NCBI GenBank assembly: GCA_964016885.1
Contig: OZ024740.1
Location: 107,384,001 to 107,448,000, forward strand
Reading direction: 5' to 3'
Origin: Eledone cirrhosa
Taxonomy: Eukaryota
DNA length: 64,000 nucleotides
In this document: positions 25,621 through 49,313 of the stretch, in pieces
Layout of the letters: each line of letters begins with the position of its first letter
Numbering within the stretch: the stretch's first letter is position 1
Translations under genes and position numbers: made by a program
Notes under the pieces: generated by a model
Told to the model about the DNA's origin: nothing
Seen by the model: only the letters and a program-made list of their open reading frames with translations
Database searches by the model: none

Positions 25621-26249
25621 GATAGGGCTGGGATGACTTGCGAATGATCGATGTGTTATTCCATGACTAATTCTACGTGTCTGAAATACGAGGAGCCGTT
25701 AGTAGCTAATCTTCGTGCATTTCCAATCTATTATTTAACTGTGGCTTTTCTTTCGAGAGCGGCAAATCCCTAATTTGGGACGCAATGTACAGCGACTCGT
25801 TCTCCACCTCCAAACTTGTCACTTCGGCCACAAACCCGAGCTCCGCTGCTCATAATGCAGAGAAGAGGAAGATAGTCAAATACCAGGGCTTGACCGACCG
25901 CTTTCTCTTTCCACCGGAATCCATCAAGACCTTGATCCCGCACTGCTGCTTTCCTCCAGAAAATCGGAAAGACGTGGGCCCGTTTGAGGAGTGAGTCCCG
26001 TGAGGTGGGGTGGCTATTGCAGCGAGTGTCTCTGGTCATTCTCTGCGATAACGGTTTTGTCCGCAGGAGCTGGTACAGTAATGCGCCAGCTTCAGTAATC
26101 AGAAGAAGGGAGGTAGGCATAAAAGCCAAACTCGCTATCTTCAATTCATATCCGTGCCAACCCTTGCCTATGGTCATAAATCTTAGGTATTGACCGAAAG
26201 AATACGATCGCAAATATAAGCTGTCGAAATGGAATTCCTCCGAAGGATC

Positions 26250-29200
26250 TTTAGTGTTCTGTCAGACCCAGGATTATTTACTTGAGTAAATATCACTGGA
26301 ATCTAACTACTACATTTTATACAGAAAAGGATAAGATATATTTACAAAACACCATATCGAATACAAGTCTTCATTTTATTGTAACTCCGTTATAATTGTT
26401 GTACACAAATATCCTCGTACATATTTAGGTATAGTCCAAGCCCGTGATTAACATGTTTTATTGATGGAGTGGTGTGCGCATAAATGTTAGTATACCTGGA
26501 GTTATATGTTAGCAAACAGCAGTAAGAAAGGATCGGAATGCATGTCCATCTTTAGGCCCTTTGATGGGGGTCCCTAGGAAGATGTTATCTGTTCGAAGGA
26601 AAAACGCCAAAGAGAGAAAGAGCTGGTTGTGTTGCCGCTATTTATAACCTCTTTCCGGAAATTGCAAAAGGGGGTTCTAGACTTTCGACGGGAAGTAACT
26701 CTAACTACTTCCCTGTCTAGAGAGCGCTACAAGACTCCCCTCTCAGACGAGAACTCGAATGGCCAAATGAAATCATTGTAGCGAGAACGTGAGGAGCAAA
26801 ACGAAAGGTACAAGAACATGAATGAATCAAACACGAGCAAGCAAATAGCAATCAAGGTAGCCAACCGCTCTTGGCCAGAGAACGACTGGACATCTATCTA
26901 TCCATCACCCAAAGATACAATGTAACCAACTTAAAAGAAGAGGTCAAAGGAGCAAAGAAACGTGCTCGAACATAGTTATTAAAAAAAGTTCAAATGTTCA
27001 AAATAAAGGTAACATGGCAGCAGGGAAGAGAGTGTGTCCTCCAGAGAATGTATCCAGGTGGTTTCTGGACTGTGGTACAACGTGAAATTCCGAACCTCCG
27101 AAGGCGGTGGGATTTTCTCACAGGAAGAGTGCTGCAAAAATAAATTCTCTGTGTTTTGTTCTGCTGGTTTTGGTTGTTGATAAAGCAAAGATGAAGCTGT
27201 GTTGTTGTTGTTGTTGTCTCGCGGAGTGAGATAGCCCTTTCGAAGTTATTTCAATTCACAGTAAAAAGTTTCTCAGAAAAAATGAGTTGCGCAAAGTGCT
27301 AGAAATAATAGCCAAAGTTGTTGGTCGATGTTGAGAACGCGTTGACCTGGATGAGTCAAGAGGCCAGCGACCATAGAAATAAGTATTCTGAACAAATGCG
27401 CAGTTTTCAACGGCAAATTTACATGGTAAATTTTTAAACCGGCAAATAGGAGAATATAGCTTAAGGCTGGAGAATCCTTGGCAAGAAACATTATCTAGGG
27501 CGTGTGTTATCTCAGTGAGTCGAGATGTGTGCTCCCACACACGTGCCGAAACAAGGTTAAAGTCAAGTTGAATTAAAAAAATATTTCTTTAGCGCGAGAA
27601 AATGATAGTGGAACAGGTCGTTGGCAGCCATTTTGAAAAATTTGTGTGTGAACGTGACAATATGATGAAAAAGAAAGAAAGGCTTTATTCACTTTGTATA
27701 AAAAATATTGCGAGAGTTCAATTTTTTTGTGAAAGTGATGAAAAAGTAGCGAAAAAAGGCTTAGTTGAATGAGTAAGCGAGCTGTGATGTTCATCAAAAT
27801 TGACATGTTGAATATAAGAATACAGGAGTCCAAGTCTTTTTTAGTGTTCGTTCTGAGAAGAACGAAGGATATATCCAGTGAGTGAAACACATTTAAACGA
27901 TGTAAACACGTGAGGTGAAGAGTAAAATTTTTTCTTGTTTGTTTGCTGCTGAGAAAAAGATTACTTCTATTTTTCGTTGTAGACAGTTTCTGAGAAAAAA
28001 TCCATGTGGAATGTTGTTAGAGGATTTTTTTTCTTTTTTCTTGTTGTCCGAAATAGCGCCACGTAGGTGAGAAAAAGTTTGTCCAAACGAAAAGTTCAAC
28101 GTGTGTCTGTGTGTTCGTTTCATCTGTCTACGCGAATCAACAGTTCAATAAGTCATTCGATGTCACCATTAAAGCGAATGGCGAAATTAAATAGGCTGCA
28201 TTTTCTTGATTTATCGTCGGAGTTCACCACTTTAGAAGATATATGGTTATCGGTTATAAAGGATAGCTTGTCAATGTCCGATGGGAATATCTTCTATGTT
28301 TTTAATACGTTATGACTCCATTGATTTTACTGAAAGTTATTGGTAGTGTATGCATTGGTATCAGAGTAAAAACAACAGAGCTTATCAACGTAACAAATGT
28401 TTTAATTTTTTAACTTCCGCGAATCCGGCAATGACAACACATTTGAAAGAAAATTAGTTGCATTTTCAAAATTATATACGCACGTGGTGGTAACATGAAT
28501 GGTTGAAGTGATGTAACACGGAGGAAGCAAAATGGCGGATACAAAAACGAAAGCTGTGTTGAAAACGAAAACACGAGGTGCAAAAAATTTTTTTTCACTT
28601 TATGCGTATCCAGGAATTATCATTATTTTTTTTTCGTTGGTGTTTCTGTACGTCGGGTCACCATTTTAGTGTTCTGTCAGACCCAGGATTATTTACTTGA
28701 GTAAACATCACCGGAATCTAACTACTAAATTTTATACAGACAAGGATAAGATATATTTACAAAACACCATATCGAATACAAGTCTTCATTTTATTGTAAC
28801 TCCGTTATAATTGTTGTACACAAATATCCTCGTACATATTTAGGTATAGTCCAAGCCCGTGATTAACATGTTTTATTGATGGAGTGGTGTGTGCATAAAT
28901 GTTAGTATACCTGGAGTTATATGTTAGCAAACAGCAGTAAGAAAGGATCGGAATGCATGTCCATCTCTAGGCCCTTTGATGGGGGTCCCTAGGAAGATGT
29001 TATCTGTTCAAAGGAAAAACGCCAAAGAGAGAAAGAGCTTGTAGCAAGAGTTCCCTCCCTTATCACCAGTAGCGCTCTCTAGACAGGAAGTAGCTGGAGT
29101 TACTTCCCGTTGAGGTGGTAGAGCCTTCTTTGTCACTTCCGTCCAGGGAACCCTATAAAGGAGAGAGCTTTCAGCTCTCTCCCTCTCTTCTAACCTGCCT

Positions 29201-31203
29201 GGCCCTTCGGCCAGGCTCGCGTTCGCCGAGGCTATACTCTCTGACAACCTGAACATGGTAATGTAAAGAACACTTGGTCTCTTGCGAGATGATTTCAAAA
29301 CGGTAATACAACTAACTTTAATTCATTCTTTCAACTCTCTTGGCATGTCAACTATTCTGCTCTACATAACTCAACGTTGTTAAATAAACATTGTACACAC
29401 AACCTAGTGTCTTGTTATATTCATACAACCCAGTGTCGCTGTTATAAGTGGTGACCCCGAGAAAAAAATAATAGGATCTGGTGTTGTGTGAATATGATAA
29501 AAAACAAAAAAAAAATAATTAATTAGCAGTATTTCAAAAAGAAAAAATTCCTCTAACAACATTCAACATGGATTTTGTCTCAAACGAAAAATAGAAGTAA
29601 TCTTTTCCTCAGCAGCAAACAAACAAGAAAAAATTTCGCTTTTCACCTCACGTGTTTACATCGTTTAAATGTCGCTACTTTTTCATCACTTTCAAAAAAA
29701 AAAAATTGAACTCTCGCTATATACAAATCCTTTCCTTCTTTTTCATCATATTATCACGTTCACACAAATTTTTCAAAATGGCTGCCAACGACCCGTTGCA
29801 CTATCATTTTCGCGCCATTTTCTCGCGCAATAGAAATATTTTTTATTCAACTTTACTTTAACCTTGTTTCGGCACGTGTGGGCAGCATACATCTCACAGA
29901 GATAACACACGCCATAGATAATGTTTCTTGCCAAGGATTCTCCAACCTTAAGCTATATTCTCCTATTTGCCGGTTTAAAAATTTACCACGTAAATTTGCC
30001 GTTGAAAACTGCGCATTTATTCAGAATGCTTATTTCTTTGGTCGCTGGTCTCTTGACCCTTCCAGGTCAACGCGTTCTCAACATCGACCATCAACTTTGG
30101 CTGTTATTTCTAGCACTTTGCGCAACTCATTTTTTCTTGGAAACTTTTTACTGCGAATTTAAACAACATCGAATAGGCTCACTCTGCGAGACAACATCAA
30201 CAACAACAACACAGCTTCATCTTTGCTTTATCAACAACCAAAACCAACAGAACAAAACAATTTATTTTTGCAGCACTCTTCCTGTGAGAAAATCCCAATT
30301 TCACGTTGTACCACAGTCCAGAAACCACCTGCATACATTCTCTTGAGGACACACTCTCTTTCCTGCTGTCACCTGTGAACTGTATTTTGAACATTTGAAC
30401 CTTTTTTTAATAACTACGTTCGAGCACGTTTCTTTGCTCCTTTGACCTATTCTTTTGGTTTGATTACATTGTATCTTTGAGTGATGGATAGATAGATGTC
30501 CAGTCGTACTCTGGCCAAGAGCGGTTGGCTACCTTGATATCTATCATTGATTTTTGCATGCTTATATTTTGCTGTTTTCCTTTTATTGCAAACATTATTT
30601 TTTTGTAATTCTCATGCCTGGACTTTGGTGTTACATGCTCGCCATCTTACTCCATACATGGTTCATTCGATTTTGTTTTAAAAATCTGGCGGGGGATAAT
30701 GTAGCAAGAGTTACCTCCCTTATCACCAGTAGCGCTCTCTAGACAGGAAGTAGCTGGAGTTACTTCCCGTTGAGGTGGCAGAGCCTTCTTTGTCACTTCC
30801 GTCCAGGGAACCCTATAAAGGAGAGAGCTTTCAGCTCTCTCCCTCTCTTCTAACCTGCCTGGCCCTTCGGCCAGGTTCGCCGAGGCTATACTCTCTGGCA
30901 ACCTGAACATGGTAATATAAAGACCACTTGGTCTCTTGCGAGATGACTTCACAACTAACTTTAATTCATTCTTTCAACTCTCTTGGCATGTCAACTATTC
31001 TGCTCTACATAACTCAACCTTGTTAAATAAAATTTATACACACAACCTAGTGTCTCGCTTTTATATTCATACAACCCAGTAAACCTGTTATAAGCTGGTT
31101 GTGTTGCCGCTATTTATAACCTCTTTCCGGAAATTGCAAAAGAGGGTTCTAGACTTTCGACGGGAAGTAACTCTAACTACTTCCCTGTCTAGAGAGCGCT
31201 ACA
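26250..31203 (-). mobile_element. Non-autonomous LTR retroelement A (outer)
   Basis: LTRs 26250-26731 and 28665-29039+31093-31203, near-identical; GATC TSD at 26246-26249 and 31204-31207; PBS TGGTGACCCGACGT at 28650-28663; PPT GAGAGGGGAG next to the 3' LTR; no gag/pol ORF. Confidence 0.92.
29040..31092 (+). mobile_element. Non-autonomous LTR retroelement B (inner, inserted in the 5' LTR of A)
   Basis: LTRs 29040-29446 and 30700-31092; AGCT TSD at 29036-29039 and 31093-31096; PBS TGGTGACCCCGA at 29449-29460; PPT GGCGGGGGATAA. Confidence 0.92.
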
Positions 31204-33410
31204 GATCCTTGGAGTAACGTTACTCAATAGAATGCATAGCTCAGAGATAAGAGAGTCGCTTCAGGTAGAACCACTATTTCTCCGGATTGAGAGGTCACAA
31301 CTCCGATACTATGGGCATGTGGTTAAAATGTCTCAGGAAAGAATCGCTGGACAGATTTTACGGGCAAAACTAACCGGCAGGGGACCCATAAGGAAACCTC
31401 GAGCAAGATGGTTGGATAACATCCATGAGATTGGCTGGTCTCGCTTGGGGATCCAGCCGGATCAGTGGAAGATGGTTGCTTCTCACAGGCCCCACTAGGA
31501 GTATTCGAGGACTCTTCCCCCACGACCCTCTCAGGAATAAGTGGGTGAATAAAAAGAATATTTGTTTTGTTTTTTAATGTATTTGGTTCTTAATAAAAAG
31601 TATGGAGATTGTCACTAAAGCCATATTTCAACTAACAAGCTACCAGCCAGTGAACGCTGGCTCCAGCAAAACAGTATACATGGACGCTCATGAAGGTGTT
31701 ATGTTATTAAGCTATTCAAATGAACATCTGGCAAAGATGAACATAACATCTTAGAAAAAAACATCATTGATTACGTCCTTGAAAACGATTGTATGATGAC
31801 TGTAGAAACGGCGGATATTTTTTGTAGTTTAATCTTGTTTACATTTATAATAACAAGAATTCATTAATAAGATATTATAATCATGATGTTTCACATAAAA
31901 ATAGAATTCGTGGGATCATATAAATATAAAGTTAGTTAATATAACACAAAAATATATAATCAAAGCGAAAAATAATAGTATCAATTCAACTATAAGTACG
32001 TCAATCGGTCACACACCACAGGGAGCATCGGAACCTCCCTCAAATACTTTTTGAGGCAAACTAATACGCTCACAGCATTACTGCCGGTGATGGCGAGGCT
32101 ATGGCGCCGAAACAACCAAGCACCCTAACGGGCATCACCTGACACCTCGGTAAGGCGAGCCGCTAACAAGAACTTCGCTGTCAGCGGCCCAACTCCCCCA
32201 AACGTCTCGAACGTCACAGGCTGGAAGAAATAGTTTACCGACAATTTTTATTTTTATTTAGTTCTGAAGAACTGTAAACAACTTTGAGTAAAACTCCGTG
32301 TTTGAAAGAAAAATTGCTATCAATATATTTACACATCGATTAATTCAGATAAATGTGTGTGTGTGAGAACATATGTACAAATGAGAAATAAAAGTACTCA
32401 ATATACGTGTGTATGTGAAGGTGTGTGGCTTGATTGAGACTAGGCGGTGGGTTGTGTACTTGAGCAGGACCCTTTATTTCATGTTATTCCACCAATTCAC
32501 TCACCTGTAGAAATGAGTTGCGACGTCTCAGGTGCTTTTCTCTTGGACAACATCAGTGACATGAAGAGGGGAGATCGGCATATATGGGCAACTGCTTGTC
32601 TTCCACAAAAACACCTTGTTCAGTTTTGTGTACTTTCTAGGAGCAAATCCCATGGTCATTCATAACCGAAGGGTTTTTTTTCTCCATTTATATATGTAAT
32701 CTATATACTTATATGCGTGCATGATACGGTTAAGTTATAATTGTTTCTACCTTTGGCACACGGCCAGCAATTACTCAGTACATTACTGGTACTTTATTTT
32801 ATCGACCCCGTAAGGATGAAAGGCAAAGTTAACCTCGACAGGATTTGAACTCAGACCGTAATGGGACGTAACTATGCTAGAAAGCATGGCGTCTAACACT
32901 CTACCGATACTGCCAATTCACGGTTAAGTTATAATGGAATACTGACTTTGATGACATCCTTCAATCACATACACGAGTATCTCATTATTAAAACTATATA
33001 GTGTTATTCATGCGTATCTACTCACATTAATACTAACTAATGCTCATAACGATACTTGACTACATCTGTGGTAATGCCGTGCGTGTGCTCACCTAAAAAA
33101 TATATTTAGAGGGCAACAGTAGCATTCTTTGTTGCCGTGTGCAATTGAATGTGCATCTCTTCTCGCGGTTTTTCTTTCTCTCTACTCTTTTGTATTGATT
33201 TGTTTCTTTTTTAAGTCGTTTGTTTTTATACATGATATAACTTAATACACATAATTTGCTTGTTGAAATTAAATAAACCATATGGCGCAAACACTATGCT
33301 GATTTCTCCCGTGATAATCTTAATATCCCATTCAATTTAACTCTAACACCTGGTCCTTTGGTGGTTTCAGCCGAGTTCATAAAAAGCTTACTGTTTCCTC
33401 TCACCCCACC

Positions 33411-35830
<2,420 letters not shown>

Positions 35831-46940: not shown

Positions 46941-47344
46941 CCACACCTTCTGTACCGTTCACCGTCGCAGCTCCCACTTTGTCAAGCGATTCTCTCCCAC
47001 ACCCAGCACATTATCTATCAACTCCCTCACCCACTACATATTCCTCCAACTTTCATCTCCTTCACTCTATTTTGATCGCTATGACCACATCACACACTCC
47101 CACCCCTAGTCCTCCCTTGAACTCTGCCACCACCATTTCCTACACGCACACACATACACATTTACTTGCTCCACTTCAGACACAGCCACCATATACTCCA
47201 GACTATACCAACTCGGACCATACTGGATACACAAACCCACCCCATCTATACACACACACACTCATACGTTTACACTAATACATGTAGCCACATTATACAC
47301 ACCAATAACCATGCATCCCTTCCAAACAGTCATACAAACGTACA

Positions 47345-49313
47345 AAGCAGAGACCTCACTCTCCAGTTGGTCCTCTTCGCAATCCCCACACAAGCCAGAT
47401 CATTGACGATCCCATGGAATGCGCAGAACTCATTGCTGAGTGCTATGCAAGTATTTTTACTGTTGAAAACCAGAATGTACCATCTCCACCATCTCTAACA
47501 TCAAATTCCATAACAACTATGGAATTTACACCTGCAATGTTGCGACGTCACCTTAAGAATAAGCGCAACTATGCCTCTCCTGGTCTTGATGGTGTGACAT
47601 ACCTGCTTCTCAAACGTGGCGGGTATTTCCTTTTGCGCCAGCTTTCTTTCTTCTTTCAATACTGTCTCAACAATGGTGCTACTCCGGAGCAGTGGAAAAC
47701 TGCCAGTGTGATTTTCCCCTGTTCAAAAAGGGCAACCGCATGTCACCTGTCAACTATCGTCCAGTCAGTCTTACTAGCTGTATGGCCAAACTGATGGAAT
47801 CCTGTGTCAGAGAAACACTTTGGAACTTCTGGAGCTCTCACAGCCTCATCCAGCCATCACAGTTTGGATTTATCCCTAAATCCAGCTGCTGTGATCAGCT
47901 TATCGAGTTCCTTGAGGACATCACCCGGATCACTGACAGCGGCTCATGGGTGGATGTTGTTTACCTTGACTTTGCTAAGGCTTTTAATTCTGTGCCACAC
48001 AAAAGACTTATGGCAAAACTCTCTGCAATGGGTGTGAGGGATGATCTTTTCGACTGGTTGAAATCCTTCATTCTCAGCCGAAAAGAAGTAGTCACGGTTC
48101 TAGGACAGCATTCTTCACCATATGAGATGTCATCTGGTGTACCACAGGGATCTGTTCTTGGTCCTCTTTTGTTTGTGGCATATATTAATGACATAGATGC
48201 CAACTTACAGAATGCCACGGTACTGAAATATGCAGATGACATCAAGCTGTACCTTGAAATCAAAAGGACTGATCCTGAAATTTACAACTCTTTCCTACAA
48301 TCAGACCTGGACACAATGCAGCAATGGATCACAGACTGGCAACTGAAGCTGGCTGTGGACAAGTGTACCACCATGCATTTTGGAAGAAAAAATCCAGCGT
48401 CCACATACTCCCTCCACAACACTGATATCAAAAAGTCCTCTTGTGAATGTGACCTGGGCATTACTGTCAGCAACGATTTGCGTTGGACAAAGCATGTCTC
48501 TAAGATTGTCAAGAAGGCCGAGGGTGTCTTGGCATCACTCAGCAAGACCTTTGTTAGCCGCTCTCCAGCCATCTATTTAAAGCTGTATACAACTATGGTA
48601 CGACCACACTTGGAATTCGCATCATCAGTCTGGAACCCCTATCTTGCTCAGAACATTGACCTCCTGGAAACTGTTCAGAGACGTGCAACCAAGCGCATAC
48701 CCTCCATCAGACACCTACCATACTCTGAACGCCTTGCTTTCCTGGGCATGGATTCATTGAAGCTCCAACGTCTGGCAATGGACTTGGTGAATACCCACAA
48801 AGTTTTTAACCATCTCGCCAATTGCAACCCTGAGCGCCTCTTTGATCTCCATGTGTCTAACACACGTGGACATGCCTACAAGATCAGAAAACAGCACAGC
48901 TCCCATGACTTTCGTAGACATTTTTTCACGCTCAGAGTTGCTGAAGCATGGAACAAACTGCCTGTGTCAGTTGTTAGCTGCCGAGACACTGCATCCTTTA
49001 AGACACTCATGCTTCTCGAAATACGCCAAAACTACACCTGATGTACCCCTTCCATACACATGCACACATGTGTGTATCATGACTCGTGCACTGTTCATTT
49101 TACTGATGTTTGTGCATTGCCCTATGTACTGTACATGTGACTTTTTTGATGAGTTGTGGTGCACCTGGGCACTGTACACAATATTTCATTATTGTTATTA
49201 TTATTATATCATGACTCATACACTGTTCATTTTCCTGACATTTGTACATTATTCTATGTACTATACATGCACCTTTGATGAGTTGTAGTGCACCTGAGCA
49301 CTGTACACAATAA

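What the first reader, a model, noticed from the sequence alone, without database searches (positions are those of the whole stretch)
26250..31203. Two related non-coding LTR elements nested in opposite orientation, forming a ~1 kb inverted repeat
Seen: element B (29040-31092, +) sits inside the 5' LTR of element A (-). Their internal regions are homologous (about 26850-28050 is the reverse complement of about 29530-30540, with indels). Their LTR starts share AGCGCTCTCTAGACAGG..AAGTAG...GAGTTACTTCCCG while the rest of the LTRs differ. Neither has gag/pol, yet LTRs, PBS, PPT and TSD are intact. Inference: a recently mobile TRIM/LARD-like family with a shared non-coding core and swapped LTR bodies. 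Read-through transcription would give a long hairpin, a candidate ADAR or endo-siRNA substrate between the two divergent genes.
Basis: partly seen in the sequence, partly recalled or inferred. Interest (0 to 1): 0.7.

Follow-up and report, generated by a model that had tools for sequence, protein, structure and literature searches.

The report
Helper-swapping LTR parasites with stacked primer sites
Two copies of an abundant non-coding jumping-DNA family sit one inside the other back to front; the outer copy carries ends that match an unrelated protein-coding retrotransposon and three primer sites in a row, likely a record of repeated switches of helper element, while the long RNA hairpin remains untested.

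Summary
The nest is real. B (2.05 kb, +) sits in the 5' LTR of A (2.9 kb, -); each has a 4-bp target duplication, a tRNA-Trp primer site and no gag/pol. Their shared cores form a ~1-kb inverted repeat (86% with gaps). Both belong to a large non-coding family (2,441 candidates in a 3-Gb genome). A is a mosaic: U3 start, U5, primer site, 256-nt leader and tail are ~94% identical to a CsRn1-clade gag-pol family found here (Auto1); the rest comes from another core subfamily (C). Three stacked primer sites mark successive 5'-end captures. Other loci join core-family parts to three further gag-pol families, so the core likely switches helpers by template switching in co-packaged RNA. The inverted repeat is most likely a by-product: a second inverted nest exists, the flanks are repeats, no 'divergent genes' were found, and a read-through RNA would need to pass six AATAAA signals. 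No RNA data could be tested. Neither element fits TRIM by size. New variant of a known kind.

The parts
26246..26249 (.). Target-site duplication of A, left copy (GATC)
   Evidence: empty-site paralogue
26250..26731 (-). 3' LTR of A (482 nt): Auto1-type 1-149, C-type 133-279, Auto1-type 275-482
26453..26599 (-). C-subfamily LTR piece inside A's 3' LTR (95% to C LTR 74-222)
26732..26851 (-). Auto1-type 3' tail with polypurine tract (26735-26744)
   Evidence: about 93% to gag-pol copies L091, L093
26845..28038 (-). Non-coding core of A (left arm of inverted repeat)
28155..28168 (-). Third (most degenerate) PBS-like site, behind an LTR-end-like TTTAA
28216..28229 (-). Second PBS-like site (C-type), behind the C LTR end TCTAAA
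28231..28404 (-). Stranded 3' part of a C-type LTR (C 215 to LTR end) inside A's leader
   Evidence: contiguous C form seen as joint 28397-28869 in runs X1, X2, X5
28409..28664 (-). Auto1-type PBS (28650-28663, tRNA-Trp) and 256-nt leader
28665..29039 (-). 5' LTR of A, part downstream of B (LTR pos 108-482); AATAAA at 28877 and 28795
29036..29039 (.). Target-site duplication of B, left copy (AGCT)
29040..29446 (+). 5' LTR of B (407 nt); motif shared with the Auto1/A LTR start at 29069-29113
29449..29459 (+). PBS of B (tRNA-Trp)
29536..30544 (+). Non-coding core of B (right arm of inverted repeat)
30545..30699 (+). B-type 3' tail with purine-rich tract (30688-30699)
30700..31092 (+). 3' LTR of B (393 nt)
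31093..31096 (.). Target-site duplication of B, right copy (AGCT)
31097..31203 (-). U3 part of A's 5' LTR (pos 1-107), TATA-like box at 31112-31118, cut off from the rest by B
31204..31207 (.). Target-site duplication of A, right copy (GATC)
26063..26249 (+). Old LINE-like repeat interrupted by A, left part
   Evidence: RTE-like label recalled, no Pfam hit
31208..31558 (+). Old LINE-like repeat interrupted by A, right part

Best explanation
A and B are two copies of one non-coding LTR family, B inserted backwards into A's 5' LTR, that is likely copied in trans by CsRn1-clade Ty3/gypsy elements and likely switches helpers by template switching during reverse transcription. Shown: anatomy, TSDs, tRNA-Trp PBS, mosaic map of A, Auto1 gag-pol family with A's ends, recombinants with other gag-pol families. 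Inferred: a C-type RNA co-packaged with an Auto1 RNA; Auto1 strong-stop DNA jumped onto the C 3' end at the C poly(A) signal, the minus strand later switched from the C 5' end to the Auto1 leader at the same 7-8-nt microhomology, and a further switch replaced tail and U3 start. That would give A all Auto1 cis signals (promoter start, integrase ends, PBS, probable packaging leader, PPT) and leave older PBSs stranded. The inverted repeat is likely an incidental product of nesting.
For: Mosaic map of A: 1-149 Auto1 94%, 138-279 C 96-97%, 275-738 Auto1 94%, 743-2302 C 90%, 2296-2564 Auto1 93%. Auto1: ~5-kb elements, at least 14 of 20 fetched regions with an LTR pair, Pfam DUF7041, RVT_1, RT_RNaseH, Integrase_H2C2, rve, CX2HX9CX3C in 9 of 20. 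PBS complementary to genomic tRNA-Trp(CCA) genes. 4-bp TSD in 26 of the 34 copies whose ends were located (of 68 examined), none 5-bp. Both Auto1/C junctions fall at C LTR 215-222, next to its AATAAA (213); the uninterrupted C form is seen in three runs with 7-8 shared letters. Intermediate C-U3/Auto1-U5 solo LTR (L075/L139). Second A-type copy L022 and solo A-type LTRs. Other chimaeras: L141 (whole Auto2 body plus its 3' LTR inside a C element), L148 (C 5' end + Auto2 pol end and LTR), L281 (Auto4 U5+PBS, 94%), L279 (Auto5 gag-PR + distal core). These families are 51-74% identical to each other in a 140-aa pol stretch. Core stays up to 96% identical across unrelated LTR types. Stacked PBS also in C, E and L048 copies. 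No coding signal in the core.
Against: No autonomous family with B-, C- or E-type LTR bodies was found (only 40 candidates are scored per DNA search), so B's helper is unknown. L141, L148, L279 and L281 are each seen once and may be dead ends. DNA-level nested insertion plus deletion could give some of these mosaics. The core tree is poorly resolved (9 of 52 inner branches starred), so direction and order of swaps are not fixed. B is nested and so younger, yet its LTRs differ more than A's (15 substitutions + 3 gaps vs 8 substitutions). Co-packaging itself was not tested.
Confidence: 0.72

Rival explanations
1. The mosaics arise at DNA level: gag-pol elements insert into or beside core-family copies, then deletion, ectopic recombination or read-through transcription fuses them; no cross-packaging between distant families is needed to create A.
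For: Nesting among these elements is common: 9 of 82 gag-pol loci (8 distinct) hold a core-family piece versus 1 in about 260 kb of other DNA (conditional test by hand p about 0.08). L141 has an LTR-internal-LTR-internal-LTR layout, which PMC4079214 (passages) explains by unequal recombination or template switching.
Against: A's 471-nt Auto1 block is bounded by a 7-8-nt microhomology at the C poly(A) signal, not by a 4-bp TSD at Auto1 LTR ends; it starts inside the Auto1 LTR, and the same junction occurs in both LTRs and in solo LTRs, so the product went through reverse transcription.
Confidence: 0.16
2. The nest is a functional or host-used hairpin locus: A's cut-off U3 promoter drives a minus-strand RNA through antisense B and on into A's core, folding into ~945 bp of dsRNA that feeds siRNA/ADAR pathways against the whole family.
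For: B lies 22-25 nt downstream of A's TATA-like box (31118). Predicted arm duplex -1,494 kcal/mol, 945 pairs; 17 perfect runs of at least 21 nt, 532 nt in all.
Against: Six AATAAA hexamers lie before the second arm, two of them in A's own LTR. No flanking gene found. A second inverted nest of the family exists (L288, ~1.8 kb, 80%). By my arithmetic ~2,000 copies of 2 kb in 3 Gb give a few nests by chance.
Confidence: 0.08
3. The structure is an assembly artefact from collapsed repeats.
For: No laid contig spans the stretch or was listed across the A/B junctions.
Against: Two independent perfect 4-bp TSDs, an exact target inside A's LTR, a gap-free empty-site paralogue, and LTR copies that carry their own private alleles.
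Confidence: 0.02

Closest known systems
CsRn1 clade of Ty3/gypsy (CsRn1, PwRn1, AgCR; PMC2582038, passages)
   Same: tRNA-Trp PBS, 4-bp TSD; partner Gag has CX2HX9CX3C; ~5-kb partners
   Different: A and B encode nothing; they share only cis signals with these elements
ETn/MusD of mouse (PMC1331978, passages)
   Same: Non-coding element mobilised by a coding family with nearly identical LTRs; subtypes differ in the 3' LTR and 5' internal segment
   Different: ETn has one described helper family; here one core carries ends from four gag-pol families 51-74% identical, with stacked PBSs; invertebrate-type gypsy clade
Soybean SNARE/SARE LTR swapping (Du et al. 2010; title seen in reference lists only, content recalled) and RT-linked recombination review (PMC6894440, passages and section 9)
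   Same: Non-autonomous element gains LTR parts from an autonomous partner by recombination during reverse transcription
   Different: The review calls recombination between distant cross-packaged RNAs rare; here it is seen with several distant families and leaves stranded U5-PBS remnants
TRIM / LARD (PMC10886601 intro; PMC3286476 passages)
   Same: LTRs, PBS, PPT and TSD without coding capacity
   Different: 2.05-2.9 kb: above the TRIM limit (<1 kb), below the recalled LARD size (>4 kb)
Non-autonomous endogenous pararetroviruses (PMC5491270, passages)
   Same: Regulatory non-coding ends exchanged with partners by region-specific recombination
   Different: Plant circular viruses with homologous intergenic regions; here the swapped LTR bodies are unrelated

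Membership tests
Non-autonomous LTR retrotransposon | Two LTRs with PBS and PPT | tested here: met
Non-autonomous LTR retrotransposon | Target-site duplication | tested here: met
   GATC and AGCT; 26 of 34 located copies
Non-autonomous LTR retrotransposon | No gag/pol | tested here: met
Non-autonomous LTR retrotransposon | Dispersed multicopy family | tested here: met
Non-autonomous LTR retrotransposon | Mobilised in trans by a coding partner | not testable with these tools
   inferred from shared cis ends
CsRn1 clade (partner Auto1) | tRNA-Trp PBS | tested here: met
CsRn1 clade (partner Auto1) | Gag CX2HX9CX3C | tested here: met
   9 of 20 regions
CsRn1 clade (partner Auto1) | 4-bp TSD; PR-RT-RH-IN order | tested here: met
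CsRn1 clade (partner Auto1) | Groups with CsRn1 in an RT-RH-IN tree | not tested
   no reference sequences were fetched
TRIM | Length under 1,000 bp | tested here: not met
   B 2,053 nt, A 2,897 nt; limit from PMC10886601
LARD | Large size (>4 kb, recalled) | tested here: not met
LARD | Conserved structured internal RNA (recalled) | tested here: inconclusive
   best-conserved 311-nt block of B: z = -0.25; one stretch only
Hairpin-RNA / endo-siRNA locus | Long near-perfect inverted repeat | tested here: met
Hairpin-RNA / endo-siRNA locus | One transcript across both arms, small RNAs or editing | not testable with these tools
   no RNA holder listed

The most novel reading that the evidence does not exclude
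A promiscuous retro-parasite: one non-coding core, older than its LTRs and present in a second species, survives by serially taking promoter, integrase ends, primer site and packaging leader from whichever of several distant CsRn1-clade families is active, stacking each abandoned U5-PBS as a readable fossil of past helpers; its minimal passenger signal is the distal ~370-nt core kept in the gag-bearing and miniature variants seen.
Probability: 0.4. Interest if true: 0.65.

Novelty: new variant of a known kind. Interest (0 to 1): 0.48.

Why it matters
Non-autonomous LTR elements are usually tied to one helper family, and recombination between distant co-packaged retroelement RNAs is thought rare (PMC6894440, section 9). 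This genome holds a high-copy non-coding core joined to ends of four distant gag-pol families, an intermediate LTR and stacked primer sites, so the order and breakpoints of helper switching can be read from sequence. It offers a natural map of which cis signals (U3 start, U5, PBS, 256-nt leader, PPT tail) define a CsRn1-clade helper. It also warns that LTR-LTR divergence misorders insertions here. The hairpin would matter only if read-through RNA is shown.

Tried and rejected
RNA evidence: no RNA holder listed; a blank, not evidence. Laid contigs/reads listed no piece spanning the stretch or bridging the A/B junctions; parts without cover prove nothing. In run X4 the alleles of A's 5' LTR next to B were not seen; not usable, for the same reason. 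Coding core: rejected; shared variants even across codon phases (13/16/13; 19/26/25), shared indels mostly not multiples of three (2 of 26), at most 4 of 55 copies stop-free in any frame. Structured-RNA core: z = -0.25; Rfam at 20-40 kb gave only AT-microsatellite matches below gathering score; no tRNA in the window. Core as native 3' UTR of a gag-pol family: L141 looked so but holds a full Auto2 LTR and a PBS before the core; L279's gag-PR belongs to Auto5, whose full-length copy L286 has no core. Helper for B/C/E LTRs: not found; one search used wrong coordinates and returned only more D-type LTRs. Flanking genes: none (49 of 199 ORFs, mostly in LINE stretches, were not; flanks L157-L160 were not scanned for genes). 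Earlier scan notes: nothing. Literature searches for stacked PBSs or helper switching in CsRn1-type elements found no such report; Du et al. 2010 and Baust et al. 2003 could not be read, and no supplements were read.
Full report
Observation. Self-comparison confirms the anatomy. Element A lies on the minus strand with LTRs at 26250-26731 and 28665-29039 plus 31097-31203 (8 substitutions in 482 nt, K2P 0.017) and TSD GATC. Element B (29040-31092, plus strand; LTRs 407 and 393 nt, 15 substitutions and 3 gaps, K2P 0.040) sits at position 108-111 of A's 5' LTR with TSD AGCT. A interrupts an old LINE-like repeat whose paralogue at 52.6-53.3 kb aligns across the site with no gap there. The cores are inverted: 26845-27752 against 29672-30544 and 27889-28038 against 29536-29672, both about 86% with gaps. 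The shared LTR motif is A's position 2-47 but B's position 30-74; the rest of the two LTRs does not align. Partner gag, protease and pol find nothing in the window.

No flanking genes were found. Of 199 ORFs of at least 70 aa, 150 were scanned and a few more. All Pfam hits lie in LINE-type RT or endonuclease ORFs; one of these also matches PHD/C1 models. The GC-rich left flank is itself a repeat with 2,526 candidates. Short exons or a very long intron are not excluded.

The family. B and A give 2,441 and 1,908 candidates in the 3.0-Gb genome, 40 scored each; these are not copy numbers. Copies fall into modules: the 3' tail travels with the LTR start and the LTR end travels with the leader, as expected if U3 comes from the RNA 3' end and U5 from the 5' end. 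At least five LTR types (A, B, C, D, E) flank a core that is up to 96% identical between types; the 55-row core tree is star-like and weakly supported (9 of 52 branches starred). A 4-bp TSD was found in 26 of the 34 copies whose ends could be located, of 68 examined, and none extended to 5 bp. Median LTR-LTR K2P is 0.031 (B, n=11), 0.030 (D, n=19) and 0.023 (Auto1, n=14), so parasite and helper were active over a similar span; no clock is available. The PBS is complementary to genomic tRNA-Trp(CCA) genes (7 of 7 gene-like loci called by ARAGORN). The core shows no codon-phase bias, no frame-keeping indels and no folding signal in the one block tested.

The helper of A. A search with A's LTR and leader led to a ~5-kb gag-pol family, Auto1: at least 14 of 20 fetched regions have an LTR pair, with DUF7041, RT, RNase H and integrase domains and a CX2HX9CX3C Gag motif in 9 of 20. 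With the Trp PBS and 4-bp TSD these are the CsRn1-clade features given in PMC2582038 (passages); no tree with reference elements was made. In the copies displayed the coding region is split over several frames.

A is a mosaic: 1-149 Auto1 (94%), 138-279 C (96-97%), 275-738 Auto1 (94%; U5, PBS, 256-nt leader), 743-2302 C (90%; LTR remnant, PBS, leader, core), 2296-2564 Auto1 (93%; tail, PPT, U3 start), then the same LTR. Both Auto1/C junctions fall at C LTR 215-222, beside its AATAAA at 213. The uninterrupted C form appears as a 471-nt skip with 7-8 shared letters in runs X1, X2 and X5. A solo LTR with C U3 and Auto1 U5 exists (L075/L139), as do one more full A-type copy (L022; 2 of 40 scored span the chimaeric leader) and solo A-type LTRs. 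A holds three PBS-like sites at 28663, 28229 and 28168, each behind an LTR-end-like sequence; C copies hold two, and E copies and L048 hold two of their own.

Other helpers. L141 has a complete Auto2 body and 3' LTR inside a C element; L148 joins a C 5' end to Auto2 pol, tail and LTR; L281 has Auto4's U5 and PBS (94%) with the distal core; L279 has Auto5 gag-protease with the distal core. These four families are 51-74% identical to one another over a 140-aa pol stretch. Each of these chimaeras was seen once. D copies (23 of the 55 typed, a biased sample) carry the Auto1-type tail and U3 start. No coding family with B, C or E LTR bodies was found.

Mechanism. Inferred: co-packaging of core-family RNA with helper RNA, helped by the shared tRNA-Trp primer, and template switches at microhomologies near R and the PBS. 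The product gains the helper's cis signals and keeps the older U5-PBS as a fossil. DNA-level nesting followed by deletion remains a rival, since 9 of 82 gag-pol loci (8 distinct) hold a core-family piece against 1 in about 260 kb of other DNA (p about 0.08 by hand). It fits A less well, because the Auto1 block starts inside the LTR at a microhomology and recurs in both LTRs.

The hairpin. The arms would pair over about 945 bp (-1,494 kcal/mol) with 17 perfect runs of at least 21 nt. B lies 22-25 nt after A's TATA-like box, so A's U3 could drive antisense-B RNA. To reach the second arm that RNA must pass AATAAA at 30587, 30266, 30021, 29847, 28877 and 28795. No RNA run was listed, so expression is untested. 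A second inverted nest (L288) and simple copy-number arithmetic make the inverted repeat an expected by-product.

Against my reading. B must be younger than A but has the more divergent LTRs. Its last four differences (396-399) match variants that occur among other copies, while most others are private, so heterogeneous templates explain only part of the gap. The depth contrast of A-identical contigs in run X4 is unexplained.

Comparison. It works like ETn/MusD (PMC1331978, passages) and like the soybean LTR-swapping pair (title seen only, content recalled). It is too long for a TRIM (PMC10886601, abstract and introduction) and shorter than the recalled LARD size. PMC6894440 (passages, section 9) calls recombination between distant cross-packaged RNAs rare; PMC5668417 (abstract) shows it is frequent within a family; PMC3286476 (passages) reports non-coding mosquito LTR elements without known masters; PMC4079214 and PMC5491270 were read as passages. 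Seven searches found no report of stacked PBSs or multi-family helper switching in CsRn1-type elements; the library lacks most subscription papers and Repbase, and no supplements were read.

Verdict. Real structure, ordinary as a nest, more interesting as a clear record of helper switching. New variant of a known kind; interest 0.48.

Noticed in passing
window 26351-26743, 27720-27919, 27995-28551, 28522-28705; run X4: Run X4 (other sample, kind not on record) holds contigs with no difference to A's interior (depth 12.6-21.8) and a 393-nt contig with alleles private to this locus's 3' LTR (18.5) that stops 24 nt after an AATAAA; unique right flank pieces are at 2.5-3.3. Could be transcription or extra copies of this A; contigs cannot decide.
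   Followed up: partly
window 26845-28400; run X5: A run labelled as another organism has 150-210-nt contig pieces matching the core at about 90% and the contiguous C LTR joint; suggests the core predates the species split.
   Followed up: partly
L288:373-4588: Second inverted nest: an E-type copy inside another in opposite orientation, ~1.8-kb inverted repeat at 80%, beside a gag-pol element that also holds a D-type copy.
   Followed up: partly
L028, L264, L272, L275, L070: Family LTRs repeatedly sit inverted right behind a PBS or head-to-head; may be fold-back reverse-transcription products.
   Followed up: no
L135, L192-L196, L199, L258-L274: PBSs extended by up to about 45 nt of tRNA-Trp complement (read-through of the primer); the E subfamily has this fixed in front of a second LTR end and PBS.
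   Followed up: partly
L282:1619-3966: Miniature three-LTR tandem of B-type LTRs with only the distal core (824-1205) and B tail, with TSD.
   Followed up: partly
L047, L050, L190: A further tail/U3 type (about 800-nt tail) on the same core; its donor was not sought.
   Followed up: no
window 33520-35816 and 47340-49075: Two ~81-83% identical LINE copies in opposite orientation, 11.5 kb apart; the right one keeps a 483-aa RT frame.
   Followed up: no
G000 C4 277.41-277.44 Mb and 353.40-353.42 Mb: Clusters of matches to tRNA-Trp; the three loci scanned there with ARAGORN hold tRNA-Trp(CCA) genes.
   Followed up: no
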